From positions 1 to 64,000 of the IMG/VR virus record IMGVR_UViG_3300025151_000020: 64,000 nucleotides of DNA; one strand, given 5' to 3'. Below, piece after piece: positions 10,724 through 23,907 of this stretch (position 1 is its first letter; each line of letters begins with the position of its first letter). A program made the position numbers and the translations under genes. This stretch comes from a virus. A model generated the notes under the pieces. That model ran no database searches, had not been told where the DNA came from, and saw only the letters and a program-made list of their open reading frames with translations.

Positions 10724-11020
10724 GTGCCACGCACACATGACTACAACAACAAAGTGCATGATGAAATAGAAACATCATGTCATCTTGGTGAATGCCTTCA
10801 TGTAGTCACTTCAAATGCTTTTGATAGCAGAGTCTTGAATCTGAGAATGTTTCGTGTTCAGCCGTCTAAGACGGGTCATACAGGATATACTAAGATTGGA
10901 TTCTTTCTTTCCAGGGATGAAGCACGACAACTCAGAGATTCATTGTCAGAAGTTGTTGAGGATGAGAATGCCTGGGATACAGACATTAGAGATACACTCA
11001 TTGACATGGAGGATGTTTGA
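10724..11020 (+). CDS. PC4/YdbC-like ssDNA-binding protein
   Basis: VLNLRMF...GYTKIGFFLSRDEARQLRDSL resembles the PC4 pattern (+DIR.F....PT+KGI.L). Confidence 0.6.
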   Translation: MPRTHDYNNKVHDEIETSCHLGECLHVVTSNAFDSRVLNLRMFRVQPSKTGHTGYTKIGFFLSRDEARQLRDSLSEVVEDENAWDTDIRDTLIDMEDV

Positions 11021-11580
11021 TGCCAAGATGGGAAACTTATGATGACTTCATGTACGAATACATGACTTTGGCACACGATATCTGTAAGAGATGTATCATT
11101 ACCGATCCAATAGCAATTGGCAATTTTGCTTTTGATTTGTGGAATCATGCAAAGGAGTTTGCATCTCGATCTCACACTACTCTCTTGTTTGATTGCGTTT
11201 ATATCGTTGGAAATGCCACAGGAAATAAGGTTTCGATTCCTTTACTCCAAAGCATTTCTTCGGATTTACTAGACGGAAGGAGAATCAAGGCAATGGCATC
11301 TTACGAGAAAACCGATAAGTGGTTTCTCACACCAAAAGGAAAGCAAGCAATCATGGAAATCTTATCAGGAGATGAGGATTTGTTCAATGATGTTGCGAGT
11401 GCATGGATTGATGGCAAGACTGTAAATATGTCTGGAGAACAAAGCGATTATTGGTGTGAGCCATGTGGTGTTAGAAGCATAAGTGGGCAAGAGCGTTTAG
11501 ACCTCATCAATGAAACGACTAAACCCATACTGATGTGTCCAGGTTGTAAGAAATGGGAATGGGATGAACGGAGTGTTTGA
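11017..11580 (+). CDS. TFB/TFIIB cyclin-repeat-like protein with C-terminal Zn ribbon
   Basis: IC....A..LW..A....RS...L..DCVYIVG...G..VSI..L resembles one TFIIB repeat; CEPC...CPGC at the C-terminus. Confidence 0.5.
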   Translation: MMPRWETYDDFMYEYMTLAHDICKRCIITDPIAIGNFAFDLWNHAKEFASRSHTTLLFDCVYIVGNATGNKVSIPLLQSISSDLLDGRRIKAMASYEKTDKWFLTPKGKQAIMEILSGDEDLFNDVASAWIDGKTVNMSGEQSDYWCEPCGVRSISGQERLDLINETTKPILMCPGCKKWEWDERSV

Positions 11581-13025
11581 CTTTGCTATCATACCGATCA
11601 CTTGCAGAATCTTGGCGAGTCATGGCCACATACAAGTTAAGGAATCGTGGCGAGATAGTTGCTAACAATCTTAGAGCTGCACCAGGAGATGCTTGGTCTG
11701 TAATATCATTCTTCTACCCTATGAGTTATCACAATGACAGGTTGAGCGATGAAGACTTGAGGGAGATTTACTTCTTGCTTACAGGTGCATTTCCAGAGGA
11801 GATAGAAAAGAATGCAGATCCCATTCAACAACTCACTATGCTTTCTGAAACACCGAGCACAACAGGGTCTGCAAAGAGCGTATCTGATCGCATATCAAAG
11901 ATATTAGAGGCAGATGATAATGAAGTGAGGTCTTGGTTGATTAGACCCTTGTTTGAAAGAATTAACAGTCGTGATCTTCATCCTTTCTTCATGAGGCTAA
12001 GTGTCCGTTCAGCTCCTGTTAGAAGGAGAGATGTCATTTCGGCATTGGCTTTGGCTTACGAGCAACCCTATCATCATGTTAGGACATCTGTGAATCTATT
12101 AGGTTTGAGAAACACATTGAATGATTTATCTCTTCATTCCTTTGATTACACGAAGGTTAGACCTATTCTTGGTGAATCAATGGTCATACCCACACCAACC
12201 CTGGTTGAGTCCTCTAATGTTGTTGCATTTACCAAGTGCCTTCTTGAAACAGTTGAAGGTGCGTGGGTGACTATTCATCGTATGCAGAACAAGACAATTG
12301 GATTCACCGCTTCTGGTAATGAATTGCCCGATGATGATGATTGGATACATAATTGGGCTAACATAATCAATCTCCAGGAAGGAATATATCTCTGTGATTA
12401 TGCAGAGATGCGAGATAACCCTTTGTTGTTGGTAGATTGGCTAAACCCAGATGATCCGAAAATGACTCTTGCAAAACGCAGAGATAGATTCAATGGCATA
12501 TCTGAATGGGCAATCAAACCCATGATTGCTTTAGACAGACCATATGATAGTGAGAAATACCAAGATACAGGGTTGCCTTTCTTGATCAGGAATGCTAGAG
12601 GCATATTGACATATCAGAACACCGTTGAAGAAGTGGTCCTGTTGAATCCTGTGTCTAAGCATAGGATACTTCGAGTATTGTCTGGGCGTGTTCATCAGAA
12701 TCTAAGTCAGAGCGATACATTGTTTGTACTTTGGAAGTTGGGTGTTCGTGATGGATATGATTACTTCCCAATAGTTGAGATGCCTTCTGGTGAATTAGAA
12801 GATATTGATTTCAAACAATACTGTTCGCCCTGGAAATGGTTGCCAGGAGAAGCAATAAAAATAGAGAATCCTTTGTTCGTAAAGGTGGATATCATGACTT
12901 CTGGTTGGGGGGAAGTTGGAGCATATGTCAATGGCAGAATTGTGGGCATAGATGGTAGTGCGGGGATCGCAGACACAATGGGTGTGGAGGAGATAGGCTA
13001 TGTCGGGGATTCTCAATCAGGATGA
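11577..13025 (+). CDS. ATP-dependent DNA ligase homolog, apparently catalytically inactive
   Basis: DBD, NTase and OB segments are colinear with archaeal ligases; motif I reads ETVEGAWVTIH instead of xKxDGxRxQxH. Confidence 0.65.
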   Translation: MTLLSYRSLAESWRVMATYKLRNRGEIVANNLRAAPGDAWSVISFFYPMSYHNDRLSDEDLREIYFLLTGAFPEEIEKNADPIQQLTMLSETPSTTGSAKSVSDRISKILEADDNEVRSWLIRPLFERINSRDLHPFFMRLSVRSAPVRRRDVISALALAYEQPYHHVRTSVNLLGLRNTLNDLSLHSFDYTKVRPILGESMVIPTPTLVESSNVVAFTKCLLETVEGAWVTIHRMQNKTIGFTASGNELPDDDDWIHNWANIINLQEGIYLCDYAEMRDNPLLLVDWLNPDDPKMTLAKRRDRFNGISEWAIKPMIALDRPYDSEKYQDTGLPFLIRNARGILTYQNTVEEVVLLNPVSKHRILRVLSGRVHQNLSQSDTLFVLWKLGVRDGYDYFPIVEMPSGELEDIDFKQYCSPWKWLPGEAIKIENPLFVKVDIMTSGWGEVGAYVNGRIVGIDGSAGIADTMGVEEIGYVGDSQSG

Positions 13026-13419
13026 TAGAGATATCATAATCTTAGCCTCATTGATTAGGGGCAAGATTCGTTGTGAGAGAACACGGGAAAGAAAATGTGG
13101 TTATCTCATTAGGGCGGAGTTGGGAATACCAACTATGAAGGATGGAGCTAGTCGTGCATTGGAAAGTCATGGATTACCTGTTAGGCTAACATACACGGAC
13201 ACCATTGAGATCACAAAAATACTGAACATGATAAATGGCCTGGAAGACCTATCAAAAACTACTGATGATTTGTTTCTAGTCAAAAAACTCAATGGAGTGT
13301 TGAAACAACCACGAACTCACAAAGAGGTTCTATCTGCCCTTGAGTTGATTCAAGAGTATGAGAGTGTTCATAACCCAAACCACACTCCCACAAAGCCCAA
13401 AAGAATGGAGAGTGAATGA
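13000..13419 (+). CDS. Degenerate LAGLIDADG-fold-like protein
   Basis: ILASLIRG..C.R....KCGYLIRAELGI resembles the LAGLIDADG helix plus GY.+R strand but lacks the acidic catalytic residue. Confidence 0.35.
   Translation: MSGILNQDDRDIIILASLIRGKIRCERTRERKCGYLIRAELGIPTMKDGASRALESHGLPVRLTYTDTIEITKILNMINGLEDLSKTTDDLFLVKKLNGVLKQPRTHKEVLSALELIQEYESVHNPNHTPTKPKRMESE
13360..13373 (+). promoter_or_regulatory. Early promoter motif GAGAGTGTTCATAA
   Basis: Exact copy of 1056-1069, inside the 3' end of the upstream gene, 50 nt before ATG 13423, which has an SD. Confidence 0.6.
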
Positions 13420-13422
13420 AAT

Positions 13423-14754
13423 ATGGCAGATGCATTGAAGAGATTGGAAGATGAAATGGGGTGGACACCTCAAGAAACGGTAGAGAAACTACATGAGTGG
13501 TGGAAGGAGGTGAATCCAGAAGAGTTCGCCCGCTATGATGGTGACTTCTCAAAGATAGAAGATGAGAGCGAAACAGAATGGATACTTTCAGGCTTTGAAT
13601 CCACATGGAGGAGAAGAGGCACGGCAAGCGGACCAGGTGACAGATATGTTGGATTCGTTATCGGATACAACGGGCAACAGGATCTAATGGGAAGGCAGAG
13701 AGAGAAGGCAATTGAAGCAATTCAATTTCATGGCATTGATTCAGTATTGAAGAATGGAATACAACCATACCAGGATGATCGAGTAGTGAGAATTGGCCGT
13801 GCAGGATATGTAGAAGGTGCATGGAGAGTCTTTGACGCAACTGATCGTGAGATATACACAGATGAGGGTGATGAGTCTGAATTACCAAAGTGGGCTATTG
13901 CAGTACCTGGTCAGAAATACTTCCTTGCAATCATGGGAGGGGCTAAAGGACCAAAGACGGCATACTCTTACAAGAAGAATTGGCTAGTCGTGGCTAACAA
14001 AGAATCTGATTTCTTTAGCAAAGGTCCATCAGCACCTATGACTCTTGAATGCTCATGGGATGCGGCAGACCTTGACCTAAGAATGAATGAGCCAATTTCT
14101 TTTACGGCAGAAGAAGGTACTGCATTCTATGATGAGTCAGTAAAGATTCTGAAAGCGGGTGGTGGTCTTAATCCAACATATGGTTTAGAGCAATTCTCTG
14201 ATGAGCAGAAGCCTCTGTTTGAGCAACTAACAATTGATCAAGTATTGGCACAGTTTGCAAACTTCCAACCTGATCTATCATTGATTCAAGAATACCATGA
14301 AGACAACAAGACCACACTTGCAAGTGGCCGTGATGTCGGACCGATATTCGCCATGAGAGGTGTAGTGGATTACATGGATTATGATGGAAAGGACAACATC
14401 AAGTTCGGCTTATCCGCAGAAGGAGGAGCTCAGCACAAGTTGGCAATATACAGTCAAAGTCTTAGAAATGAGAATCCAGATGCATCGGTGTGGATATCCG
14501 TATCAAGGACACTCATTGAGAAGCACCATGCCTTCCAGGTAAAGAAGAATGGAGAGTGGTATGATTTCGTAAAGCCAACTCAAGTATTCATTGTAGTAAG
14601 GTCAAGGACATGGCAGAACAACGATGGCGATACTAACTATGACTACGATGCATTGAATGTAGTCGCACCATACCCCAACAGATCATCAATAGCACAAACA
14701 ACAACAGAAGATGCAAACGATATGGGGAGTCTAGGCAATTTCAGAGGTGATTAG
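13423..14754 (+). CDS. Putative OB-fold ssDNA-binding (RPA-like) protein
   Basis: 443 aa, acidic and aromatic-rich; C-terminal OB-like strand pattern (AMRGVVDY...VWISV...QVFIVVRSR...YDALNV); adjacent to a Sak4-like ATPase. Confidence 0.45.
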   Translation: MADALKRLEDEMGWTPQETVEKLHEWWKEVNPEEFARYDGDFSKIEDESETEWILSGFESTWRRRGTASGPGDRYVGFVIGYNGQQDLMGRQREKAIEAIQFHGIDSVLKNGIQPYQDDRVVRIGRAGYVEGAWRVFDATDREIYTDEGDESELPKWAIAVPGQKYFLAIMGGAKGPKTAYSYKKNWLVVANKESDFFSKGPSAPMTLECSWDAADLDLRMNEPISFTAEEGTAFYDESVKILKAGGGLNPTYGLEQFSDEQKPLFEQLTIDQVLAQFANFQPDLSLIQEYHEDNKTTLASGRDVGPIFAMRGVVDYMDYDGKDNIKFGLSAEGGAQHKLAIYSQSLRNENPDASVWISVSRTLIEKHHAFQVKKNGEWYDFVKPTQVFIVVRSRTWQNNDGDTNYDYDALNVVAPYPNRSSIAQTTTEDANDMGSLGNFRGD

Positions 14755-14756
14755 GG

Positions 14757-14966
14757 TTGGATGAGGTAGTTATAGGCACATTCCTTGACTACGTTGCCTG
14801 GCTCAGACGAGATGGATCTGTTGAGCAATTACAAGTACCTCAACAAATAGCAATGTTTGGACACTTGCAGGTGGATTATTCCAATCTTCATGTAGTAGCT
14901 GCATTATTGACTCAATGCGAATTGAATCGAGCAGAGCAGACTCCTTTGATACAGGTGGTGGAGTGA
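14757..14966 (+). CDS. Small hypothetical protein
   Basis: 69 aa, TTG start with GAGGTGA SD; TGATG-coupled to the next gene. Confidence 0.6.
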   Translation: MDEVVIGTFLDYVAWLRRDGSVEQLQVPQQIAMFGHLQVDYSNLHVVAALLTQCELNRAEQTPLIQVVE

Positions 14967-16345
14967 TGTCGGATGGATCAGGATTTGAGTGGTTCAAGAA
15001 GGTGGATACCAACACAGGACTAGCGGATGGACAAGCACCTCCTCCAAAGAAGGAGAAGCCACCTCCCAAGAAGAAGAACATCTGGGGAGAGGAAGTGGAT
15101 GAACCCGATTTTGATACCACAGGTATGTCTGCTCAAGAGATTGAAGAAAGGATGTATCCAGAGATCGTGGAGGATAGGAATCCTCCACCCCCATTGGACA
15201 AGGGGGCATCATTACCCTGGCAAACTAAAGATGAGCCAAAGGAAGAACCCATAGTGACTGACAATTGGCCTCAGAATGACCCTAGTGAAGAACCGCTACC
15301 AATAATGAAGCAAGCACCTCAAGCACCCCCTCAACCTTCTGCCGTTCCTAATAAGAAGGTGGCAGAGCCTGTTGCTCGTAGCAACAATCCCTATTGGGAG
15401 TTGGTTGATCATGAAAGAGCAGGTGGTGATGCATTCCTATCTGGTTTGGATAATTTCGTACTCTGTGGTATAGCAGGTCCTCCTGGATGCGGTAAGACAG
15501 GCATGGTTCTTGATTCGCTTACGGATGAGGAAATAGCCAATGGTGCAGAGATATGGCACATTGACTTTGACAGAGGTGGCAAGACCTCCAAACACGCTCA
15601 TCACAGAGGAAAGACCAATATTTTGACATTCGATCCCTGGGTTTTCAAGAGAGAATCAGGCAATAGAGTGCCAACAGATTACGAAGCGTCTTATCTCAAG
15701 ACGATGGATCTATTGAGCCTAGCCATAGAGCAGATGCACAGTCAGACTGAGTATTACAGGCAACATGGAAAGATGCCCGAAAGATATCTCAAGACATTGT
15801 TGTTTGATGGTTCTGATAAGTGGGAAAGCATTTGCAGGACACTCATGAAGGTACAAGACCTCGGTTTAGGTGCTGATGGCATAGGAGCTGCAAAGAAGCG
15901 TGTGACGCATTTTAGTTGGCACGTTAGAAAGACTCGCTACACCTCTGCATCAGAGTGTTGGCAGGGTTTGATGACAGGCGGAGTTCATGTCTATACTATT
16001 GCACACATGAAATCCACATATGATGGTGAAGGCAACATCGTTGAGGGTCAGGAGATACCAGGATGGCTCAAGGATAGCGATGGCGATCTTCAACAAGTCG
16101 TACTCATGGAATTGATTGAGGAGAGAGATGAGTTGGGCAGAAGGACAGGAGTCATAGATTCATATGCAGTTCTAACAAAGAACAGAACATCACTTGACCT
16201 TCCAGGCAGACACCAAGTCTTTCACAGAGCACCACCAGAATTAGGTGGTTCAACATGGTATGGTTGGCCTAGCCTCAAGTATGGAAAGTTTGAAACAGAT
16301 CAGGGGCAGGGTTTGAATGGTACTCAAACTGAGATTTCCTCGTAA
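14966..16345 (+). CDS. RecA-fold ATPase, Sak4/AAA_24-like recombinase, with Pro-rich N-terminal extension
   Basis: GPPGCGKT Walker A, IDFDRG, LLFDG Walker B, IAH.K; start ATG 14966 after a GGTGGTGGAG SD. Confidence 0.75.
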   Translation: MSDGSGFEWFKKVDTNTGLADGQAPPPKKEKPPPKKKNIWGEEVDEPDFDTTGMSAQEIEERMYPEIVEDRNPPPPLDKGASLPWQTKDEPKEEPIVTDNWPQNDPSEEPLPIMKQAPQAPPQPSAVPNKKVAEPVARSNNPYWELVDHERAGGDAFLSGLDNFVLCGIAGPPGCGKTGMVLDSLTDEEIANGAEIWHIDFDRGGKTSKHAHHRGKTNILTFDPWVFKRESGNRVPTDYEASYLKTMDLLSLAIEQMHSQTEYYRQHGKMPERYLKTLLFDGSDKWESICRTLMKVQDLGLGADGIGAAKKRVTHFSWHVRKTRYTSASECWQGLMTGGVHVYTIAHMKSTYDGEGNIVEGQEIPGWLKDSDGDLQQVVLMELIEERDELGRRTGVIDSYAVLTKNRTSLDLPGRHQVFHRAPPELGGSTWYGWPSLKYGKFETDQGQGLNGTQTEISS

Positions 16346-17342
16346 TTCTTATCCTATTCCAATTGAGGAGTACAAAGGATATCAGTCATCATACGGATGG
16401 TGGCCAGGCTCGCCCACGAACATTTTGCCAAGATTCACTAAATCATCGGTTGGAGCTTCCAACTTCTGCCCTCAACAGTATTTCATCAAATACCCGCTAG
16501 GAGTAAAGGAACCAGAAAATGACAACATGATTAGAGGAACTAATGTCCATGATGCAGTAGAGCAATTCTATCATGATGTTGATTTGGATGTCATTGATGA
16601 ATTGAATGGTGTTGGAAATGATTTGCATGAAATGCATAATTATTTCATGAGCATAATACCCAACATGGATCGTTATGAGTTAGGAGAAGAAGAACACATT
16701 CGAAAGTACCTCTTGGCAGAGGCTATGAGGGCGATGGATTGTGATCTTGATTTGTTTCTTCCTGTTGGTAATGAGATTACATTACACGGAGTAGTTGAGA
16801 TTCAAGATCAAAAAATACACATTACAGGCATGATTGATAGGCTCTTTGTTGATAACGAAGGCAGATATCATGTTCATGAGTTGAAGACGGGTGTGTTCAA
16901 TCCTAAGAAGGACAGAAAGTGGGAGCATATGCGTCAAGAGTTGGCTTACTATGTATTTCTGATGAAGCATTGTGATAACAAGTTGTATGACCGAGATAAC
17001 AATGTAATTGGGGAATTGCCACTATCAGATGCCAATGTCGCTTGGTGGGGATGGGATCACACAGGAGGCGAGGGAATATACAGAGGCAAGGAATCTGTTC
17101 GGACCAGGGAGATGGCACTTATGCTTAGGAGTTTAGAAGACCTTCTAAGATATCATAGGAATTACAATGGAGATACAGACGGCATTCAATTCCCATTGTT
17201 GCATCCAAACAAAACTAACTTTCTCTGCGAACCCTGGTGTGCCTTGAAGGGATTCTGCCCCCGTTATGATAAGCCACTCATGCCTTACAACGCCAGAGTG
17301 TTCAAAAGCGAAAGCCTGTCTGAGGGAGGTGAGAGTGGATGA
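16317..17342 (+). CDS. Cas4/RecB-family PD-(D/E)xK exonuclease
   Basis: CPQQY, GTNVH, GMIDRL, ELKTG, QELAYY, C..WC....FCP (four Fe-S cysteines). Confidence 0.88.
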   Translation: MVLKLRFPRNSYPIPIEEYKGYQSSYGWWPGSPTNILPRFTKSSVGASNFCPQQYFIKYPLGVKEPENDNMIRGTNVHDAVEQFYHDVDLDVIDELNGVGNDLHEMHNYFMSIIPNMDRYELGEEEHIRKYLLAEAMRAMDCDLDLFLPVGNEITLHGVVEIQDQKIHITGMIDRLFVDNEGRYHVHELKTGVFNPKKDRKWEHMRQELAYYVFLMKHCDNKLYDRDNNVIGELPLSDANVAWWGWDHTGGEGIYRGKESVRTREMALMLRSLEDLLRYHRNYNGDTDGIQFPLLHPNKTNFLCEPWCALKGFCPRYDKPLMPYNARVFKSESLSEGGESG

Positions 17343-19438
17343 AGTATGTCAGTCTGTTTGCAGGAATTGAAGCCGCATCACAAGCATGGCACGTACTTGG
17401 ATGGCAACCATTGGCATTCGCAGACATTGACAGATTTCCCTCTGCCGTGCTTGCACATCATTATCCCGATGTGCCAAATGTTGGAAATGTAGAGGAGGTA
17501 GATTGGAGTGAGTACAAAGGAAAAGCAGATCTCGTTGTCGGAGGAAGCCCATGTCAGTCGTTTTCCGTTGCGGGAAAAAGACTCGGAATGGATGACCCTC
17601 GTGGTAACTTGGCCCTCGAATACCTCAGAGCTGTTAAGGAGATTCAACCGACGTGGTTCGTCTTTGAAAATGTGCCAGGACTTTTGTCATCTGAGGGGGG
17701 ATCGGACTTTGGTAAGTTCCTCGGAGAGGTGGCAAGTATCGGGTATGGGTTCGCCTGGAGAGTTTTGGACTCTCAATTCTTCGGAGTGCCGCAAAGACGT
17801 AGAAGACTCTTTGTTGTCGGACATATTGGAGGAGATTGGCGAAGTGCCGCAGCGGTATTATTTGAGTCCGAGAGCTTGCAATGGCATACTGAGGAGAGCA
17901 CAGAGGAGGGGCAAAGCCTTGCCGCCTTCTTTGGAAGCGGCTTTGCAGGAGAGAGCGAAGCATTACCAGGAGGAGGAGGAGTAAGTGAATCCTCACAAGA
18001 GAATTGGGATGGAACACAAAAAACAGGCACTCTAACTACAAGAAGCCTAGATCAATCCATGCCCGATAAATCAAACTTCATGGGCATTGTTGAGCGTGAT
18101 CTGCATGAACCAGATAATATCTTTGAAAGTTCAAAGAGTCGTAAGGACTTGAGTCCTCCATTAGATGCAAGAGATCAGGGCAGTACAGGCAAACCTGTAC
18201 TTACAGAGAGAGTCATACCAATTCATGATAAGGCCACTCGATACAAGGGTGGCGGAGATACTAGAAACAATGATGGTGCAGGTAATGGATTAGGAATCGG
18301 CAAAGATGGCGATCCAATGCCGACATTAGACACGGCATCAAATCATGCCGTAGCCCAAGCAGTTGATGTTTGGAATCAAGTCATAGACGGAGAAAAGGCC
18401 GCCACTTTAACAGAGGCATCTGGCGGAACTAACACATCTGGTCCAAAGGTCATGACTACATTTCGTAAATCAAGAAGGGCACAAAGCACGGAAGATAACG
18501 AAACATGGGTTGAAGATGAAGTCAGCAATACTCTAAACACATTTGACATAGGAGATGCGAGAACTACTCAGATTATACAAGAACCAATTGCCTTTGAGCA
18601 GAATCAAAGATCCGAGATTAGAGAACTTGGCACGAAATCAACATCTCTCAAGGCACAACCAGGCACTAACCAACAGACATTCATTGCACATGGAGAACAA
18701 ACTCCGTTGCATGGCGAGGATGTATCTCCAACTTTGGATGCGAGTTATGGGAAGGGACCAGGAGAAAGAGCAGGTATTGAAAGACAAGTCATTGGGGAAG
18801 TCATAGGATTCTCTCATACTCAAGGTCTTGATGCTCAACCATCAACAGAGCATTTTCCCACTCTGAGAGCCGAAGGCCAGGGTCATGCTATTGGTTTTGA
18901 TTGGAAAAATACGGGGCAGACTAATTTTTCAGAATCAAATACAGGAGCTCCTTTGACGGCAGAAGGGGGTCTTGCAGTTGGCATCGATCAACAAGTGTAT
19001 GAGAATCACCCATCTGATGGCAGAATCAACGAAGTGCATACTAGCCCCACCATAACTGCAAAGGCGGGTACGGGCGGGGGAAATCTCCCATTGGTAAAAG
19101 AAAACGAGGTAGCACCCACATTAACGGCAAGAGATATGTACGATGGTCAAGCAAGTCACACGGTTCAGCAACAACACATGGCAGTTAGGAGGCTGACTCC
19201 TCTTGAGTGTGAGAGGTTACAGGGTTTCCCTGATAATTACACTAAGATACCATACAGAGGCAAACCTGCTGAGAAATGCCCCGATGGTCCGAGATACAAA
19301 GCACTAGGCAATTCAATGGCAGTACCTGTTATGAGATGGATAGGGGAGGGCATACAACAGGTAGATGAGATTCTTCAAACATTAGAAGAAAGACCAGAGC
19401 CTCAAGAAGTCATCCAAAAATCTATTTTTGATTTCTGA
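17339..19438 (+). CDS. C5-cytosine DNA methyltransferase with greatly expanded variable region
   Basis: SLFAGI (I), GGSPCQSFS (IV), ENV (VI), QRRRRLF (VIII), RRLTPLECERLQGFPD (IX), LGNS (X). Confidence 0.95.
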   Translation: MKYVSLFAGIEAASQAWHVLGWQPLAFADIDRFPSAVLAHHYPDVPNVGNVEEVDWSEYKGKADLVVGGSPCQSFSVAGKRLGMDDPRGNLALEYLRAVKEIQPTWFVFENVPGLLSSEGGSDFGKFLGEVASIGYGFAWRVLDSQFFGVPQRRRRLFVVGHIGGDWRSAAAVLFESESLQWHTEESTEEGQSLAAFFGSGFAGESEALPGGGGVSESSQENWDGTQKTGTLTTRSLDQSMPDKSNFMGIVERDLHEPDNIFESSKSRKDLSPPLDARDQGSTGKPVLTERVIPIHDKATRYKGGGDTRNNDGAGNGLGIGKDGDPMPTLDTASNHAVAQAVDVWNQVIDGEKAATLTEASGGTNTSGPKVMTTFRKSRRAQSTEDNETWVEDEVSNTLNTFDIGDARTTQIIQEPIAFEQNQRSEIRELGTKSTSLKAQPGTNQQTFIAHGEQTPLHGEDVSPTLDASYGKGPGERAGIERQVIGEVIGFSHTQGLDAQPSTEHFPTLRAEGQGHAIGFDWKNTGQTNFSESNTGAPLTAEGGLAVGIDQQVYENHPSDGRINEVHTSPTITAKAGTGGGNLPLVKENEVAPTLTARDMYDGQASHTVQQQHMAVRRLTPLECERLQGFPDNYTKIPYRGKPAEKCPDGPRYKALGNSMAVPVMRWIGEGIQQVDEILQTLEERPEPQEVIQKSIFDF
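17508..17984 (+). CDS. Nested alternative-frame gene, M.EcoHK31I beta-polypeptide-like
   Basis: 158-codon +1-frame ORF with SGM...GEFWTLN...LSDILE....YYLSP.AC.GILRRA.RRGK.LP..L..AL motif; true start uncertain. Confidence 0.65.
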   Translation: MSTKEKQISLSEEAHVSRFPLREKDSEWMTLVVTWPSNTSELLRRFNRRGSSLKMCQDFCHLRGDRTLVSSSERWQVSGMGSPGEFWTLNSSECRKDVEDSLLSDILEEIGEVPQRYYLSPRACNGILRRAQRRGKALPPSLEAALQERAKHYQEEEE

Positions 19439-19447
19439 GGTGAATAC

Positions 19448-20548
19448 ATGGGGCATCTGTTCAATGACTTCCCTCGTGAAATTGACATGAAGGCAAGAAA
19501 GGTCATCAGAAACATGAAACAATTGCAGAGATATGTTGAGAAGACAAATGGTCGAGATAATCTCACAACTACTGTATATGGTTTCAGAGATCTCAAGACG
19601 AAGGGCAATCGTTGTGAGTATAGCACCGCAATCATACCTCACTTCGTAGTTGATTTGGATAAGGGCAGAGCTAGTGAGATACTAGACATGGATGGAGATG
19701 CAGGTGGCCAACGATGCACAGATGATACCTTGATTCTAGTCAGATACCTGGAAGAAAGAGAAATACGCCATGCTACTTGGATGAGTGGCGGAGGATATCA
19801 TGTATGGATTATGTTAGATCAGGTGTACAACTTAGAGCCTAGAGATACCAATGACCTGTTATTCTCTGGTCGTGCGATGATTAACAAGTGGATTAACGAC
19901 ATGAGTTTAGTCACGATAGATCCTGTTGTTTCTTTCCGCCCTGATCGTCACATAAGGATACCAAACACATACAACACAAAGAGAGAGTTATGGAGCATAC
20001 CTGTTGATTCAGATGATTTAGAAAAGGGTTGGAAGTATATCACAGACAAAGCAAAGAATCCATCTGGTGGTATGAAAGTAAAGGGCAAAAAGGGTTTGAA
20101 GATTGATATTGTTGAGAGCGACCCAGGCAATCAGTATATGTCAAGTATGACAGGATTTTTCGGGAAGTTTGAGGCGGCGGAAATATCTGTATCGTCAAGG
20201 AACATAGCAGGTATTCCGATGTTGCCATGTCTTGATGCGGCTTGTTGCACCAAAGGAGATAACCCCCCTCATTTGCCTCGTTCCTATCTGTCCATGTATC
20301 TCTTGGATTACTTTCACAACTTTGCAAGACCTCGAAGCTCAAGCAAAGTAAAGCCGTATGATGCAGTTGCAAAGGCTCATGCTTTCATCCGTGATTTGGA
20401 ATGGGCTGACTACAACCCTAAGATTACTCAAGAGCAATTGATTCATGCATCAAGCCGTGAATATCTCACACCCACCTGCCCCACTATATTTAGACAAGGA
20501 CTGTGTATTGGGAGATGTCCATTTTACGATCAGAAGGGAGTGAAATGA
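19448..20548 (+). CDS. Archaeo-eukaryotic primase, PriS catalytic domain fused to PriL C-terminal domain
   Basis: DLD, SGGGYHVW, ID....R.IRIPNT; then LPCL...PPH..R...DY....T..Q...Y.TPTC......LC...C. Confidence 0.88.
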   Translation: MGHLFNDFPREIDMKARKVIRNMKQLQRYVEKTNGRDNLTTTVYGFRDLKTKGNRCEYSTAIIPHFVVDLDKGRASEILDMDGDAGGQRCTDDTLILVRYLEEREIRHATWMSGGGYHVWIMLDQVYNLEPRDTNDLLFSGRAMINKWINDMSLVTIDPVVSFRPDRHIRIPNTYNTKRELWSIPVDSDDLEKGWKYITDKAKNPSGGMKVKGKKGLKIDIVESDPGNQYMSSMTGFFGKFEAAEISVSSRNIAGIPMLPCLDAACCTKGDNPPHLPRSYLSMYLLDYFHNFARPRSSSKVKPYDAVAKAHAFIRDLEWADYNPKITQEQLIHASSREYLTPTCPTIFRQGLCIGRCPFYDQKGVK

Positions 20549-20881: not shown

Positions 20882-21005
20882 GTATCAACAACTTACTTGT
20901 GTGGATTGCAAACGCAGAAGGAATCTCGTTTGGGATCCAGAACACGAGAGGTGTTATGATTGCTTCATGAAAAGGAGGGCTGAAAATGAAAATCATGTTC
21001 ATTGA
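20868..21005 (+). CDS. Zinc-finger microprotein (45 aa; CVDC...CYDC)
   Basis: Read manually; GGAGG SD; fills the gap between genes. Confidence 0.6.
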   Translation: MTINKYQQLTCVDCKRRRNLVWDPEHERCYDCFMKRRAENENHVH

Positions 21006-21687
21006 TTATAGAGAGCGTTCCGGTTTAGAAAAATTAGTCATGAAGTATCTTGACAAAAATGAACTCAAGTATCAAATGAAAGAGAACATGATTACTGATT
21101 ATGCATTTGCGAATGTGGGAATTGAGGCCAAGACAATTCAAGATTACATGGGTAGTCTGTATAGTGGCCACCTGGAGAAGCAATTGCAGAACCTTGATGA
21201 TAATTACACGCAGATGTACCTCGTGGTTCATGGTAGTTTAGATTCATACATAGCAGGTGCAAGGAGAGGAGGTAGAAAGATACCGTATGCAAAGGCATTC
21301 AATGTGTTTCTTGGATCGCTTGCAAGATTCTCAACGGATTACGATATCAACATCTGTCATTTCCAAACTCCCTCCGAAGCTGCTCGATTTATTTGTAAGC
21401 GATTTGAGAAGGATGGAACTCTTGGTAAATCATCTGCTTATCGTTTGATGAGAAAAACCGCATCAGAAGATAAGAGAATAGATGTGTTAAGAACGGCAGG
21501 TTGTACAGAAGCAGTAGCCAAGATACTCTTGAAAGAATACGGTTCAATTAGTGAAATTGTATCTGTTTCTCCGTCAGAATTACAAACCTTACCAGGCATT
21601 GGAAAGATTACCGCAACGAAGATTCTCAATTGCTTCATCAGCGAGAATCCTATTGTGGATGAGAAAATAAAAATGAAGAGGGCGTAA
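20986..21687 (+). CDS. XPF/ERCC4 (Hef-type) structure-specific nuclease with HhH motifs
   Basis: IDYRE, DY, IEAKTIQDY (ERKxxxD-like), tandem HhH (LPGIGKITA). Confidence 0.88.
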   Translation: MKIMFIDYRERSGLEKLVMKYLDKNELKYQMKENMITDYAFANVGIEAKTIQDYMGSLYSGHLEKQLQNLDDNYTQMYLVVHGSLDSYIAGARRGGRKIPYAKAFNVFLGSLARFSTDYDINICHFQTPSEAARFICKRFEKDGTLGKSSAYRLMRKTASEDKRIDVLRTAGCTEAVAKILLKEYGSISEIVSVSPSELQTLPGIGKITATKILNCFISENPIVDEKIKMKRA

Positions 21688-21688
21688 T

Positions 21689-23140
21689 ATGGTAATCGCA
21701 AAGGAGCAAAGAGATACCACTAGGAAGTGGCATGACTACCAAGTTGTAACTAGCCCTTATGACGGAAGCAAGTTCCTTCGACAGTATGTTGAGCGTTTCA
21801 GCACGGTCAGTTTCTTCAATGAGTATGCAGGTCTGTTGTCATACTATTACATCCTAGCTGCATCCTTAGCCCCTTATGTTCGTATCCCAATTCATGGTTC
21901 TTTCATTGATTGCAGACTTCATGTCTTTTGGATACAACCTGCTAGATCAGGGAAGTCAATTGCTTACGAGTTCATGTCTAAGATTCTAAAACTACTAGAG
22001 ATTGACACGGAGAAGTTTAGTGCGGGTTCAGATAGCAGATTGATTGGATCTGTCGAAACGATCCAGAAGTTGAATGACAAGGGCAAGCCGACAGGAGAGG
22101 TGGAGAACAAGATTATTCCAGGTCTATTGAATGGATACAAGACCCTTCTCTTTGACGAGGCAAGTATATTGCTCAACGACAAGAAGGCTTACTTCTCTGA
22201 CAAGATTCTATTTCTCCAACAATCTATGGCCCCGATTGGTTCAGAAACAAATGTGCTAGTCAATCACTTGAAGGGTGCTTCGGTTCATACTCCATCGGGA
22301 ATATCGTTGTGGGCTACGACATTCCCTCCAAAAGATATCATGGCTCATGTTCTTGACAAAGGATTCTTTCAGAGAGTATATCTTTTCCAAAACGATGTCA
22401 CTCCCGAAACCAGGCAGACAACGAGTGAGCATAGAGTATCTGGTGCCTATCAGCCTGTTCCATCAAGGATATGGTCTTACGAAGACATAGCAGGGGAGAT
22501 TGATGCGATACGAACAGAGGTCAAGCAGAGGTTGCTTGACTCAGCAGGGCTAACCGAAGAAGAATGGGATAACTTATCAGATGAAGAAAGAGAGATTACA
22601 TCTCAAGAACACGCATATGACATATTCACTCCTGGTCCTAATTATCTACCTGCTTTACTGAATGCAGTTGATGATTACTACTCCTTAGTTCATTCAATAC
22701 AGGATGAAAACATAAGGTCTGTTGCCATAGGCTTCATTCCGAACATAGAGAATTACACTATGATTTTTGGCAATCTAATTGCTGCTACTATGAGATCATC
22801 AGTAATTACTGCCGAGCATATACAGATGGCTAGTGAGATGATTTACGACAATTTTAGCAATCTAATCATATGGCTAGAGCAGAAGCAAGACCTCAAGTCT
22901 GGGAAGAAAAGAGCTGCTGAATTGCGTGGATGGAGAGAGGCATATAACAAGTGCAACAGAAGTGTTCATGACAGGACACAGAGAGAGGTCGTAAGAAAGT
23001 CTGATTTAGAAAAGGTGTATTCCCAATTACATGGCGTTAGTCCAAAGACGGCAAGGAGAAGGTTGGACAACATATTGAAATCAGGTGTTGCTACAAGAAT
23101 TGCAGAGGGAAGAAACGCATACATAGCATTGGATGTATAA
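21689..23140 (+). CDS. MCM-related AAA+ ATPase/helicase lacking the MCM N-terminal domain, with C-terminal wHTH
   Basis: ARSGKS Walker A, LIGSV..PGLL helix-2 insert, LLFDEA Walker B, FFQR Arg finger, VITAEHIQMA lid helix. Confidence 0.6.
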   Translation: MVIAKEQRDTTRKWHDYQVVTSPYDGSKFLRQYVERFSTVSFFNEYAGLLSYYYILAASLAPYVRIPIHGSFIDCRLHVFWIQPARSGKSIAYEFMSKILKLLEIDTEKFSAGSDSRLIGSVETIQKLNDKGKPTGEVENKIIPGLLNGYKTLLFDEASILLNDKKAYFSDKILFLQQSMAPIGSETNVLVNHLKGASVHTPSGISLWATTFPPKDIMAHVLDKGFFQRVYLFQNDVTPETRQTTSEHRVSGAYQPVPSRIWSYEDIAGEIDAIRTEVKQRLLDSAGLTEEEWDNLSDEEREITSQEHAYDIFTPGPNYLPALLNAVDDYYSLVHSIQDENIRSVAIGFIPNIENYTMIFGNLIAATMRSSVITAEHIQMASEMIYDNFSNLIIWLEQKQDLKSGKKRAAELRGWREAYNKCNRSVHDRTQREVVRKSDLEKVYSQLHGVSPKTARRRLDNILKSGVATRIAEGRNAYIALDV

Positions 23141-23142
23141 CT

Positions 23143-23907
23143 ATGGAAGGATTAGGCAGTTGGATGCAACAGTATGGCATAGTGGCATACAAAGTGTTCT
23201 CTTCAACTGATGCGAGTGATCTTCCATTGGGTTGGATCGAGCCGAGAGAGTTCAGCCTGGATGGTGTAGTATTCTATGATGGGGTGGTTATGACTGTCTT
23301 CACCGATGTTGTCCATTCGGTTCTTGTAAAGGATAAGAAGACTCAAACAAGGGATATCGGACAACTACAAGATTGGATTGATAATAGATTTACAGATAAC
23401 AACGCACCCTATACATTGGTCAGTTATGGTTCAAGGACATTTGATGCACCCCTCCTTCATAACGAATATGAGATACCCAATACTGTTGGCCAGGTTGATT
23501 TGAGAGAAATGGTTGCAGACGCTTCTATGGAGCATCATGGTGAATCATATGGTAGAAGATACGACATCAGAACATTAGCATCAATCAACAGAACAAAACA
23601 AACTGCCATACCTCATCTTTCATTCTTGTTGAAACCGATTGAACTGTTAGCAGAATGGCAAAGAGGAATGGAGAGAAATGTGCTGAAGACATTAGCGGCA
23701 GAAGTTGAGTTGATCGCACAATTATATTGCAGTATGGTAGTCAGAGAAGAACTTAGAATAATTGACAGGAGAACGGAAAGAGCTGCAACCGTTCAATGTG
23801 ATTTCGTTAGAGATATGACAAATTACAGATTCGTGCCTGATCCCGAAGAATTGGATAAAGCCGTAAAGGAGCACAAAGAGAAACTAATAGTTGAGGAGGA
23901 TAAGTAA
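23143..23907 (+). CDS. RNase H-fold (RNase_H_2/YprB-like DEDD) exonuclease homolog, apparently inactive
   Basis: LVSYGSRTFDAPLL (ExoII), VDL, W..G....V......EV.L...LY (degenerate ExoIII); ExoI DxE missing. Confidence 0.5.
   Translation: MEGLGSWMQQYGIVAYKVFSSTDASDLPLGWIEPREFSLDGVVFYDGVVMTVFTDVVHSVLVKDKKTQTRDIGQLQDWIDNRFTDNNAPYTLVSYGSRTFDAPLLHNEYEIPNTVGQVDLREMVADASMEHHGESYGRRYDIRTLASINRTKQTAIPHLSFLLKPIELLAEWQRGMERNVLKTLAAEVELIAQLYCSMVVREELRIIDRRTERAATVQCDFVRDMTNYRFVPDPEELDKAVKEHKEKLIVEEDK

What the first reader, a model, noticed from the sequence alone, without database searches (positions are those of the whole stretch)
11577..13025. Full-length ATP-dependent DNA ligase with its catalytic motifs erased
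The protein is colinear with archaeal ligases: DBD helices, RP...P linker, motif I region, TL..RR, and an OB domain (LGVRD, E.P..VKV, R.V.I...D...EE). The adenylated Lys aligns to Thr (codon 12249-12251, ETVEGAW versus xKxDGxR), motif III DGE reads LCD, motif IV EG and motif V KxK are absent, and FPR reads NGR. The intact 482-aa frame implies selection for a new role. Ligases encircle DNA, so it could act as a clamp/processivity factor, a nick shield, or a decoy for host PCNA or ligase.
Basis: partly seen in the sequence, partly recalled or inferred. Interest (0 to 1): 0.72.

Follow-up and report, generated by a model that had tools for sequence, protein, structure and literature searches.

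The report
Catalytically dead DNA ligase look-alike
A marine archaeal-type tailed virus keeps, inside its DNA replication and recombination gene block, a full-length three-domain DNA ligase look-alike that has lost the residues needed to seal DNA yet is under strong purifying selection, so a repair enzyme has probably become a non-enzymatic DNA-handling factor.

Summary
ORF 11577-13025 (+; likely true start TTG 11583) encodes a 480-482 aa protein. Pfam, PHROGs and PDB sequence searches, single-sequence or profile, find no family. Its AlphaFold model (pLDDT 83) matches three-domain ATP-dependent DNA ligases over the full length (Foldseek E 1e-19; VIA Z 19.2).

In 69 orthologs the residue aligned to the adenylated Lys is I/T/S/N/P/E/R. 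The motif IV Lys equivalent is an invariant Asn, and motifs V and VI have no conserved basic residue. The only invariant Lys (K314) lies outside the motifs. dN/dS is about 0.07 in all three domains.

In 58 viral contigs the gene keeps a fixed place in a module: small LAGLIDADG-like protein, RPA-like SSB, Sak4-like ATPase, Cas4-like nuclease, probable AEP primase, ERCC4 nuclease, P-loop protein. The genome and five large relatives show no PolB and no canonical ligase.

Best reading: a pseudo-ligase kept as a non-catalytic DNA-binding part of the viral replication/recombination machinery. Poxvirus A20/A22 is a parallel.

The residue register rests on weak profile alignment plus secondary structure, not on 3D superposition. 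The scan has noted this family in another genome, and similar dead ligases in magroviruses.

The parts
11577..13025 (+). Ligase-like gene (LIGL), 482 aa from TTG 11577; probable real start TTG 11583 (480 aa). It abuts or overlaps the stop of the upstream gene.
11577..12161 (+). Residues 1-195: all-helical domain matching the DNA-binding domain of Lig1-type ligases. It carries 13 of the 18 conserved Arg/Lys positions and the invariant RLSDEDxRE motif. It is the only domain with a non-negative net charge.
   Evidence: (8b8t_A Z 11.6, 7d9k_A Z 11.0 on residues 1-195)
12162..12656 (+). Residues 196-360: nucleotidyltransferase (adenylation)-fold domain without the catalytic residues. Mean net charge is about -10, against about +10 in bona fide archaeal ligases.
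   Evidence: (10ye_L Z 14.8, rmsd 2.8, 164 aa)
12246..12278 (+). Motif I remnant E224-T-V-E227-G228-A-W230-V-T-I-H234. The adenylated Lys is replaced (T225, codon 12249-12251, variable in orthologs). E224, E227, G228 and H234 are conserved.
12381..12482 (+). Motif III/IIIa equivalents (GIYLCDYAE, LLLVDWL) and the conserved RR helix (TLAKRR). DGE is absent. The usual ~30-residue insert between III and IIIa is reduced to 7 residues.
12516..12518 (+). K314, the only invariant lysine of the family (69 of 69). It aligns to a hydrophobic strand position of ligases, outside the canonical motifs.
12576..12650 (+). Motif IV/V equivalents: P-F-L-I-R-N339 (Lys equivalent is an invariant Asn; the EG is absent) and E-V-V-L-L-N-P (no Lys).
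12657..12968 (+). Residues 361-464: OB-fold beta-barrel. The motif VI equivalent (GAYVNGRIV, 12918-12941) has no conserved Arg.
12969..13022 (+). Low-confidence C-terminal tail with a conserved acidic-aromatic peptide G-[VI]-E-E-[IL]-G-[YW]. It is at or within a few residues of the C-terminus in many orthologs. I infer it may be a partner-docking peptide.
13000..13419 (+). o139: small basic protein overlapping LIGL by 26 nt and adjacent to it in 56 of 58 loci. It has a LAGLIDADG-like helix without acidic residues.
13423..14754 (+). o443: tandem OB-fold, RPA70/POT1/SSB-like single-stranded DNA-binding protein.
14915..16345 (+). o476: P-loop ATPase of the AAA_24 (Sak4/RecA-like) kind.
16317..17342 (+). 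PD-(D/E)XK (Cas4/RecB-like) exonuclease.
11017..11580 (+). o187: upstream gene whose stop overlaps the LIGL start. It is adjacent in most loci but lies 5 kb away in L047/L048.
19448..20548 (+). o366: probable archaeo-eukaryotic primase (DxD, SGGGFH and D..RIPNT motifs plus a Cys cluster).
   Evidence: weak, inference
20986..21687 (+). ERCC4 + HhH nuclease.
21689..23140 (+). o483: P-loop NTPase (Walker A SRTGKS, Walker B LLFDEAS) with C-terminal wHTH hints. Candidate helicase.
   Evidence: weak

Best explanation
LIGL is a pseudoenzyme. It descends from an archaeal/eukaryotic Lig1-type ATP-dependent DNA ligase and keeps all three domains (DBD, NTase, OB), but it has lost the lysine nucleophile and the other basic residues that bind ATP and activate the nick. 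It therefore cannot self-adenylate or seal DNA by the canonical mechanism.

It is retained as a non-catalytic DNA-binding component of the virus's replication/recombination module. Most likely it recognises or wraps duplex DNA at nicks, ends or annealed junctions through the conserved, arginine-rich DBD and the OB domain. There it would organise the neighbouring viral factors (RPA-like SSB, Sak4-like ATPase, Cas4-like and ERCC4 nucleases, primase) and/or host enzymes, possibly through its conserved acidic-aromatic C-terminal tail.

Shown: the fold, the motif loss across the family, purifying selection, the conserved gene context, and the absence of a canonical ligase or PolB in the genomes. 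Inferred: DNA binding, the scaffold role and tail-mediated docking. The confidence given is for the whole statement; for the pseudoenzyme part alone I would say about 0.85.
For: - Fold: Foldseek E 9.5e-20 to archaeal ligases with ~100 ligase hits; VIA Z 19.2 and 16.6 over ~450 residues; BFVD hits are all viral ligases.
- No sequence membership. An exhaustive profile search of 1.84 billion representatives returns only 33 family members or fragments.
- Motif loss in 69 orthologs, in the register given by hhalign.
- The NTase domain's net charge is reversed: about -10 against about +10.
- dN/dS median is 0.07 overall: DBD 0.06, NTase 0.08, OB 0.05.
- Synteny in 58 IMG/VR loci: o139 and the SSB are adjacent in 56 of 58, the P-loop ATPase in 55, PD-(D/E)XK in 53.
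- The gene two positions downstream is an RPA-like SSB.
- No PF01068 ligase over threshold, no PolB and no PCNA_N in the 93-kb record. No over-threshold ligase and no PolB in five relatives of 90-108 kb, two of them 100% complete.
- 13 of the 18 conserved Arg/Lys positions lie in the DBD.
- Precedents: the poxvirus A20/A22 middle domain is described as an inactive DNA ligase (PMC11142717) and matches structurally (8wpf_B Z 8.1). Catalytically inactive Lig4 still promotes repair (PMC9638927 title).
Against: - No residue-level 3D superposition was available. The motif register rests on a weak profile alignment (E 5e-4, prob 31%) plus secondary structure.
- K314 is invariant, and its position relative to the pocket is unknown.
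- The protein is acidic overall (pI 5.2), and DNA binding is not shown.
- No partner has been identified.
- E224, E227, G228 and H234 of motif I are still conserved, which could mean a retained ligand or metal site rather than a purely structural role.
- A divergent PCNA or polymerase in the genome cannot be excluded by Pfam-level searches.
Confidence: 0.55

Rival explanations
1. It is still an enzyme: a very divergent ligase or other nucleotidyltransferase whose nucleophile has moved (for example to K314 or H234), or that works with a residue supplied by a partner subunit, as in heterodimeric phage ligases.
For: - The module has a primase, nucleases and an SSB but no canonical ligase, so a sealing activity would be expected.
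- K314 and H234 are invariant.
- The acidic residues of motif I (E224, E227) and G228 are retained.
- The NTase domain is as constrained as the others.
- The PDB holds a heterodimeric phage ligase (9hu3).
Against: - All Lys/Arg positions of motifs I, IV, V and VI are lost together, and the domain charge is reversed.
- H234 aligns with a His that is already present in real ligases, so it is ancestral and not a new nucleophile.
- K314 aligns to a hydrophobic strand position outside the pocket motifs.
- The KDG-like string in neighbour o139 is not conserved in its orthologs.
- The host ligase can supply sealing.
Confidence: 0.12
2. It is a host-directed decoy or inhibitor. The dead ligase occupies host PCNA, or nicks in host DNA, and so blocks host Okazaki-fragment maturation or repair, or it diverts the host replisome to viral DNA.
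For: - The virus lacks a detectable polymerase and clamp, so it must exploit host replication proteins.
- Archaeal ligases are PCNA clients (7rpx is among the hits).
- A conserved C-terminal acidic-aromatic peptide could be a docking motif.
Against: - No canonical PIP box (Qxx[LIVM]xx[FYW][FYW]) was found at the termini. The W-x-V-[IV]-S-F-F-Y stretch lies inside a predicted DBD helix.
- The gene is embedded in, and apparently translationally coupled with, the viral replication/recombination genes rather than among early host-takeover genes.
- Nothing was tested against a host protein, because the host is unknown.
Confidence: 0.15
3. The NTase pocket is retained as a ligand reader, as in snurportin-1. 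It would bind a nucleotide, a 5' end or a flipped-out base without catalysis, for example sensing DNA ends or adenylated nicks.
For: - The snurportin-1 cap-binding domain, an NTase fold without the Lys, matches the NTase domain at Z 11.3, rmsd 3.8, 151 aa.
- Position 230 is aromatic in 57 of 69 orthologs.
- E224, E227, G228, Y275, R279, D287 and N339 are invariant or nearly so, which suggests a preserved pocket.
Against: - The snurportin match is no better than the matches to many active NTases.
- The loss of all phosphate-binding basic residues argues against nucleotide triphosphate binding.
- No coordinates were available to check that the conserved residues cluster.
Confidence: 0.1

Closest known systems
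Archaeal/eukaryotic three-domain ATP-dependent DNA ligases (Lig1/LigB type; e.g. S. solfataricus 2hiv, A. fulgidus 3gde, P. furiosus 2cfm, T. gammatolerans 6wbo)
   Same: Same three-domain order and fold over the full length (DBD, NTase, OB). It retains the linker RP..G.P..P, the motif I E..(D/E)G....H scaffold, the motif IIIa Asp and the RR helix.
   Different: - 10-15% identity, with no Pfam or profile hit.
- The Lys nucleophile and the basic residues of motifs I, IV, V and VI are absent in all 69 orthologs.
- The insert between motifs III and IIIa is deleted.
- The NTase domain is acidic.
- The protein is about 80-100 residues shorter.
Poxvirus processivity factor A20 (vaccinia) / A22 (monkeypox), middle domain
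   Same: A viral replication protein that contains an inactive ligase NTase + OB module (PMC11142717). It matches the LIGL model structurally (8wpf_B Z 8.1). It is a parallel case of a ligase fold reused non-catalytically.
   Different: - A20 has no ligase DBD. It has separate N- and C-terminal domains that bind the uracil-DNA glycosylase and the polymerase.
- It belongs to a eukaryotic virus.
- There is no sequence relation.
- LIGL's virus has no detectable polymerase.
- So LIGL is an analogue, probably of independent origin, and not a member.
Replicative-module ATP-dependent DNA ligases of magroviruses (Philosof et al. 2017, PMC5434244)
   Same: Same kind of virus (marine archaeal tailed virus with a chaperonin gene in the replicative block) and the same kind of genomic position, a ligase-type gene within the replication module.
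   Different: - Those ligases were reported as readily recognisable by sequence and were treated as active enzymes.
- LIGL is not recognisable by sequence and lacks the motifs.
- This virus lacks the PolB, PCNA and RFC set that defines magroviruses. It resembles the polymerase-less Poseidoniales viruses described as Adrikavirales (PMC11706807).
Snurportin-1 m3G-cap-binding domain
   Same: An NTase fold that has lost the catalytic Lys and acts as a binding module (1xk5_A Z 11.3).
   Different: It is a single domain of a eukaryotic import adaptor that derives from capping enzymes, not from a three-domain DNA ligase.

Membership tests
ATP-dependent DNA ligase, Lig1/LigB type (Pfam PF04675 + PF01068 + PF04679) | Three-domain fold: DBD, NTase, OB | tested here: met
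   Foldseek E 9.5e-20, full-length; VIA Z 19.2 and 16.6 over ~450 aa
ATP-dependent DNA ligase, Lig1/LigB type (Pfam PF04675 + PF01068 + PF04679) | Sequence match to the family HMMs | tested here: not met
   No Pfam hit at E<=1. No PF01068 hit on the gene in the genome search. A profile of 24 orthologs finds no ligase in the PDB or among 1.84 billion representatives. hhalign reaches only E 5e-4 for the NTase domain.
ATP-dependent DNA ligase, Lig1/LigB type (Pfam PF04675 + PF01068 + PF04679) | Motif I KxDGxR with the adenylated lysine | tested here: not met
   The aligned position 225 is I/T/S/N/P/E/R (K in 1 of 69). The Arg equivalent is W45/R12/Y8/F4. The register comes and was not checked by 3D superposition.
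ATP-dependent DNA ligase, Lig1/LigB type (Pfam PF04675 + PF01068 + PF04679) | Motifs III (DGE), IV (EGxxxK), V (xxKxK) and VI (RxPR) | tested here: not met
   The equivalents are LCDY, PFLIRN (N339 in 68 of 69), VLLNP and GAYVNGxI, with no conserved basic residue. The motif III register is uncertain by 1-2 residues.
ATP-dependent DNA ligase, Lig1/LigB type (Pfam PF04675 + PF01068 + PF04679) | Self-adenylation and nick sealing | not testable with these tools
   Needs biochemistry
Poxvirus A20/A22-type inactive-ligase processivity factor | NTase + OB ligase-like module lacking the catalytic residues | tested here: met
   8wpf_B Z 8.1, 138 aa aligned; motif loss; description of A20 in PMC11142717
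Poxvirus A20/A22-type inactive-ligase processivity factor | N-terminal UDG-binding and C-terminal polymerase-binding domains, acting with a viral polymerase | tested here: not met
   LIGL has a ligase DBD at its N-terminus instead. No PolB is found in this genome or in five relatives. UDG was not searched for.
Poxvirus A20/A22-type inactive-ligase processivity factor | Sequence homology to A20/A22 | tested here: not met
   None appears in the exhaustive profile search or in the PDB sequence searches.
Snurportin-like non-catalytic NTase ligand reader | NTase fold without the Lys, with an aromatic-lined ligand pocket | tested here: inconclusive
   1xk5_A Z 11.3; aromatic at position 230 in 57 of 69 orthologs. 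The pocket geometry could not be inspected.

The most novel reading that the evidence does not exclude
In a lineage of abundant marine archaeal viruses that encode no polymerase, clamp or active ligase, a complete Lig1-type ligase has been converted into a DNA-encircling, non-catalytic clamp-like or nick-holding scaffold. It would tether the viral primase, SSB and recombination proteins and/or the hijacked host polymerase to viral DNA. That would be an exaptation independent of, and convergent with, the poxvirus A20/A22 processivity factor, and it would include the DBD so that the whole ligase ring is reused.
Probability: 0.2. Interest if true: 0.8.

Novelty: new variant of a known kind. Interest (0 to 1): 0.62.

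Why it matters
Pseudoenzymes derived from DNA ligases are rare and poorly understood. The one well-studied viral case, poxvirus A20/A22, is an essential replication factor and a drug target.

This family is a complete three-domain ligase ring with every catalytic lysine removed. It is under selection as strong as on an enzyme, and it sits at a fixed place in the replication/recombination module of uncultured marine archaeal-type viruses that lack their own polymerase and ligase.

If it is a DNA-encircling scaffold, it would show what ligases contribute beyond chemistry: nick recognition, end synapsis and partner recruitment. It would also show how polymerase-less archaeal viruses assemble a replisome from host parts.

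Practically, the family is invisible to Pfam and PHROGs. It will be left as hypothetical, or mislabelled as an active ligase by fold-based annotation.

Tried and rejected
- Sequence family searches on LIGL (Pfam, PHROGs, PDB phmmer, PDB profile) gave nothing.
- tblastn against 50,697 deposited phage and archaeal-virus genomes gave no match.
- Complex prediction of LIGL with the overlapping neighbour o139 gave no verdict (score 0.00, controls not run). This is neither support nor evidence against binding.
Synteny was obtained from IMG/VR loci instead.
- The ESM Atlas gave no lead for o443 (score 0.77).
- Profiles of o366, o483 and o254 against PDB sequences gave nothing significant.
- I considered that o139 might supply a motif I in trans, because the window copy reads M-K-D-G-A-S-R. 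I rejected this because the string is not conserved in its orthologs.
- I considered a decaying pseudogene. I rejected this on dN/dS of about 0.07 and on intact frames in the 51 of 58 loci that span the gene.
- I considered a PIP box. No terminal Qxx[LIVM]xx[FYW][FYW] motif is present, and the internal W-x-V-[IV]-S-F-F-Y lies in a predicted helix.
- The viral chaperonin gave only one cellular relative in the species-representative genomes (42% identity, a Nanoarchaeota MAG). That is not enough to name the host.
- No tool returned model coordinates, so there was no residue-level superposition and no check of K314's position.
Full report
**1. What is at the coordinates**

An ORF runs from 11577 to 13025 on the + strand (482 aa, TTG start). 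The codon at 12249-12251 is T225 within E-T-V-E-G-A-W. The upstream gene's stop overlaps the start region (GTTTGACTTTG). A second TTG at 11583 matches the M-L-S-Y-R start of the orthologs and of a 480-aa database entry. The next gene's ATG (13000) overlaps the 3' end by 26 nt. Together these suggest a translationally coupled operon.

**2. Is it a ligase by sequence?**

No.
- Pfam and PHROGs give no hit, even at E<=1.
- phmmer against all PDB sequences, and an HMM of 24 orthologs against the PDB, find no ligase.
- An exhaustive HMM search of 1.84 billion representative proteins returns only 33 proteins, all members or fragments of the same family.
- tblastn against 50,697 deposited phage and archaeal-virus genomes finds nothing.

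**3. Is it a ligase by fold?**

Yes, clearly. The AlphaFold2 model built on 24 orthologs has mean pLDDT 83.4. It shows a helical domain (residues 1-195), an alpha/beta domain (196-360) and a beta-barrel (361-464).
- Foldseek against the PDB gives about 100 hits at E<=1e-3, and all of the listed top hits are three-domain ATP-dependent DNA ligases. They are led by Thermococcus, Pyrococcus, Archaeoglobus and Sulfolobus enzymes (E 9.5e-20 to 1e-14) at 10-15% identity, followed by human LigIV, Lig1 and Lig3.
- VIA-align, which is independent of Foldseek, gives Z 19.2 (2hiv, 449 aligned residues) and Z 16.6 (3gde). It also gives separate domain matches: DBD 8b8t_A Z 11.6, and NTase 10ye_L Z 14.8 at 2.8 Å.
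- Predicted viral structures (BFVD) that match are all DNA ligases, including that of Halogranum tailed virus 1.

**4. Are the catalytic motifs gone?**

I fetched 24 bona fide archaeal ligases (PF01068 scores of about 190-208 bits) and aligned profiles.
- Full-length hhalign is colinear over 451 columns but not significant (E 0.12).
- The NTase domain alone gives a local alignment from motif I to the RR helix at E 5e-4, prob 31%.
- Both place V-E-G-A-W on Y-D-G-F-R, so T225 takes the place of the adenylated Lys. This fits the model's strand-turn-strand at 221-235.

Across 69 orthologs (45 distinct sequences from 58 IMG/VR loci, plus database proteins):

| Canonical element | Family equivalent |
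|---|---|
| Motif I Lys | position 225: I23/T10/S9/N6/P5/E5/R3 (K once) |
| Motif I Arg | position 230: W45/R12/Y8/F4 |
| Motif IV EGxxxK | P-[VF]-x-L-[RW]-N, with N339 in 68 of 69 |
| Motif V | V-L-L-N-P |
| Motif VI | G-A-Y-x-N-G-x-I, no conserved Arg |

- Retained residues are E224, E227 (the Asp equivalent), G228, H234, the motif IIIa Asp (D287) and the RR pair (R301, R302).
- The only invariant Lys is K314. It aligns to a hydrophobic strand position outside the motifs.
- The NTase domain's mean net charge is about -10, against about +10 in the real ligases.

Limitation: I had no coordinates. The motif III register is uncertain by 1-2 residues, and K314's position in 3D is untested.

**5. 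Is it under selection?**

Yes.
- Frames are intact in the 51 of the 58 loci that span the gene, at 30-99% identity.
- Nei-Gojobori dN/dS on 29 ortholog pairs (80-97% identity) has a median of 0.07 overall: DBD 0.06, NTase 0.08, OB 0.05.
- The motif-less NTase domain is therefore as constrained as the rest.

**6. Context**

The window is the first 64 kb of a 93.3-kb viral record, about 88% complete by CheckV.

It is a tailed virus. It has an SU10/HK97-type capsid protein, prohead protease, portal, terminase and giant tail-region ORFs. It also carries a group II chaperonin, a UvrD helicase, a pyrimidine-dimer glycosylase-like gene, a PD-(D/E)XK nuclease, a C5-methyltransferase and an ERCC4-HhH nuclease.

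Neither this record nor five relatives of 90-108 kb (two of them 100% complete) contain a PolB. None has a PF01068 match above threshold, and no PCNA_N was found in this record.

The combination of a thermosome-type chaperonin and a replication module without a polymerase resembles published Poseidoniales (MGII) viruses. Classic magroviruses encode PolB, PCNA, RFC and recognisable ligases (PMC5434244). The order Adrikavirales is described as lacking a DNA polymerase (PMC11706807). I did not establish the host. The chaperonin's only cellular relative in the species-representative genome set is 42% identical, in a Nanoarchaeota MAG.

**7. Synteny**

In the 58 loci the gene sits in a fixed, co-directional block: o195 - o98 - o187 - LIGL - o139 - o443 - o476 - PD-(D/E)XK - [C5-MTase in 20 of 58] - o366 - ERCC4 - o483 - o254. 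Next to LIGL, o139 and o443 are present in 56 of 58 loci, o476 in 55 and PD-(D/E)XK in 53.

| Gene | Best reading | Support |
|---|---|---|
| o443 | Tandem OB-fold protein matching RPA70, POT1, TEBP-alpha, bacterial SSB and Teb1 (pLDDT 84.2; Foldseek E 6e-7 to 1e-4; VIA Z up to 10.7) | |
| o476 | AAA_24 (Sak4/RecA-like) ATPase | |
| o366 | AEP primase motifs and a Cys cluster, with weak PF01896 and PF04104 hits in orthologs | |
| o483 | Walker A and B motifs | |
| o254 | DnaQ-like ExoII motif | |
| o139 | Small basic protein with a LAGLIDADG-like helix lacking acidic residues | |

LIGL therefore occupies the place where a replication/recombination module would carry its ligase.

**8. Interpretation**

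The well-supported part is that LIGL is a ligase-derived pseudoenzyme under strong selection. I put that at about 0.85.

The mechanistic part is inference: non-catalytic binding of duplex, nicked or end DNA through the arginine-rich DBD (13 of the 18 conserved basic positions) and the OB domain, acting as a scaffold for the module or for host enzymes. The inference rests on three points:
- what ligase domains do;
- the gene context;
- two precedents, the poxvirus A20/A22 inactive-ligase middle domain (PMC11142717; 8wpf_B Z 8.1) and the non-catalytic repair role reported for inactive Lig4 (PMC9638927).

The conserved acidic-aromatic C-terminal peptide in a low-confidence tail resembles the docking tails of SSB-type proteins. 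That comparison is from my own knowledge and was not tested.

Rivals are a migrated nucleophile or a trans-complemented enzyme (0.12), a host-directed decoy (0.15) and a snurportin-like ligand reader (0.10).

**9. Relation to earlier notes of this scan**

These are AI notes, used as leads only.
- The same family was noted in another genome (e1-5931277).
- Follow-ups on magrovirus windows reported dead three-domain ligases next to clamp-loader genes (e1-5866578, e1-5935042).
- Another follow-up reported a dead ligase domain in a giant head-module protein (e1-5979662).

I found a comparable feature here, before I read those notes. A 1,113-aa ORF between the prohead protease and the portal (genome 64995-68336) has an NTase-like stretch with K-x-K-G-x-R and sub-threshold PF01068 matches. 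Whether it is active is open. It bears on whether the virus has any ligase of its own.

**10. Verdict**

No canonical membership holds: the fold is met, but the sequence family and the catalytic motifs are not. This is a new variant of a known kind, a non-catalytic ligase fold in a viral replication apparatus. The family is undescribed in the literature I could search.

Noticed in passing
L027:1995-5336 (-), i.e. genome 64995-68336, just beyond the window: A 1,113-aa ORF between the prohead protease and the portal contains a second NTase/ligase-like stretch (residues ~685-830: IVQKKPKGKRVLV, VVFDGYI, LTVVDLLL, LLIRDSK, KWILYP). The motif I Lys, Gly and Arg are present, but Asp is replaced by Lys and motif V has no Lys. 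PF01068 scores E 0.011 here, and 7.8e-4 and 6e-3 in the orthologous ~1,155-aa ORFs of two complete relatives. It parallels the 'structural-module ligase' of magroviruses.
   Followed up: partly
window 13423-14754 (+): o443 is a tandem OB-fold, RPA70/POT1/SSB-like protein (model pLDDT 84; Foldseek E 6e-7). No sequence library recognises it.
   Followed up: yes
window 19448-20548 (+): o366 carries archaeo-eukaryotic primase motifs (V-D-L-D, S-G-G-G-F-H-I-W, D..R-I-P-N-T-Y-N) and a C-terminal Cys cluster. Single orthologs weakly hit DNA_primase_S (E 0.005) and DNA_primase_lrg (E 0.03). It is probably a fused PriS/PriL-like primase.
   Followed up: partly
window 21689-23140 (+) and 23143-23907 (+): o483 is a highly conserved P-loop NTPase (SRTGKS, LLFDEAS) with C-terminal wHTH hints, and is a candidate replicative helicase. 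o254 has a DnaQ-type ExoII-like motif (VGYNSxKFD) and a weak RNase_H_2 hit.
   Followed up: partly
window 13000-13419 (+); L068:2836-4638; L062:11999-14569: o139 has a LAGLIDADG-like helix (ILASLIRGGIKC) without the catalytic acidic residues. In L068 it is in one 601-aa frame with the SSB-like o443, and in L062 o443 runs on to 857 aa. These are possible gene fusions or assembly errors.
   Followed up: no
window 17339-19438 (+): The C5 cytosine methyltransferase is a variable insert. It is present in only 20 of 58 related loci and at different positions. In L047/L048 it lies between the o187 gene and the ligase-like gene.
   Followed up: no
window 11017-11580 (+): The C-terminal CxxC...CxxC zinc ribbon of o187 is present only in the window's close relatives. 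Orthologs elsewhere are 120-150 aa and cover only residues 1-132.
   Followed up: no
window 5442-7025 (+): A viral group II (thermosome-type) chaperonin (Cpn60_TCP1, E 1e-149). Its only relative in the species-representative genome set is 42% identical, in a Nanoarchaeota MAG.
   Followed up: partly
L028:10587-11495 (-), genome ~91587-92495: An HMGL-like (HMG-CoA lyase / isopropylmalate synthase family) gene in the viral record (E 5e-32). It is a possible auxiliary metabolic gene.
   Followed up: no
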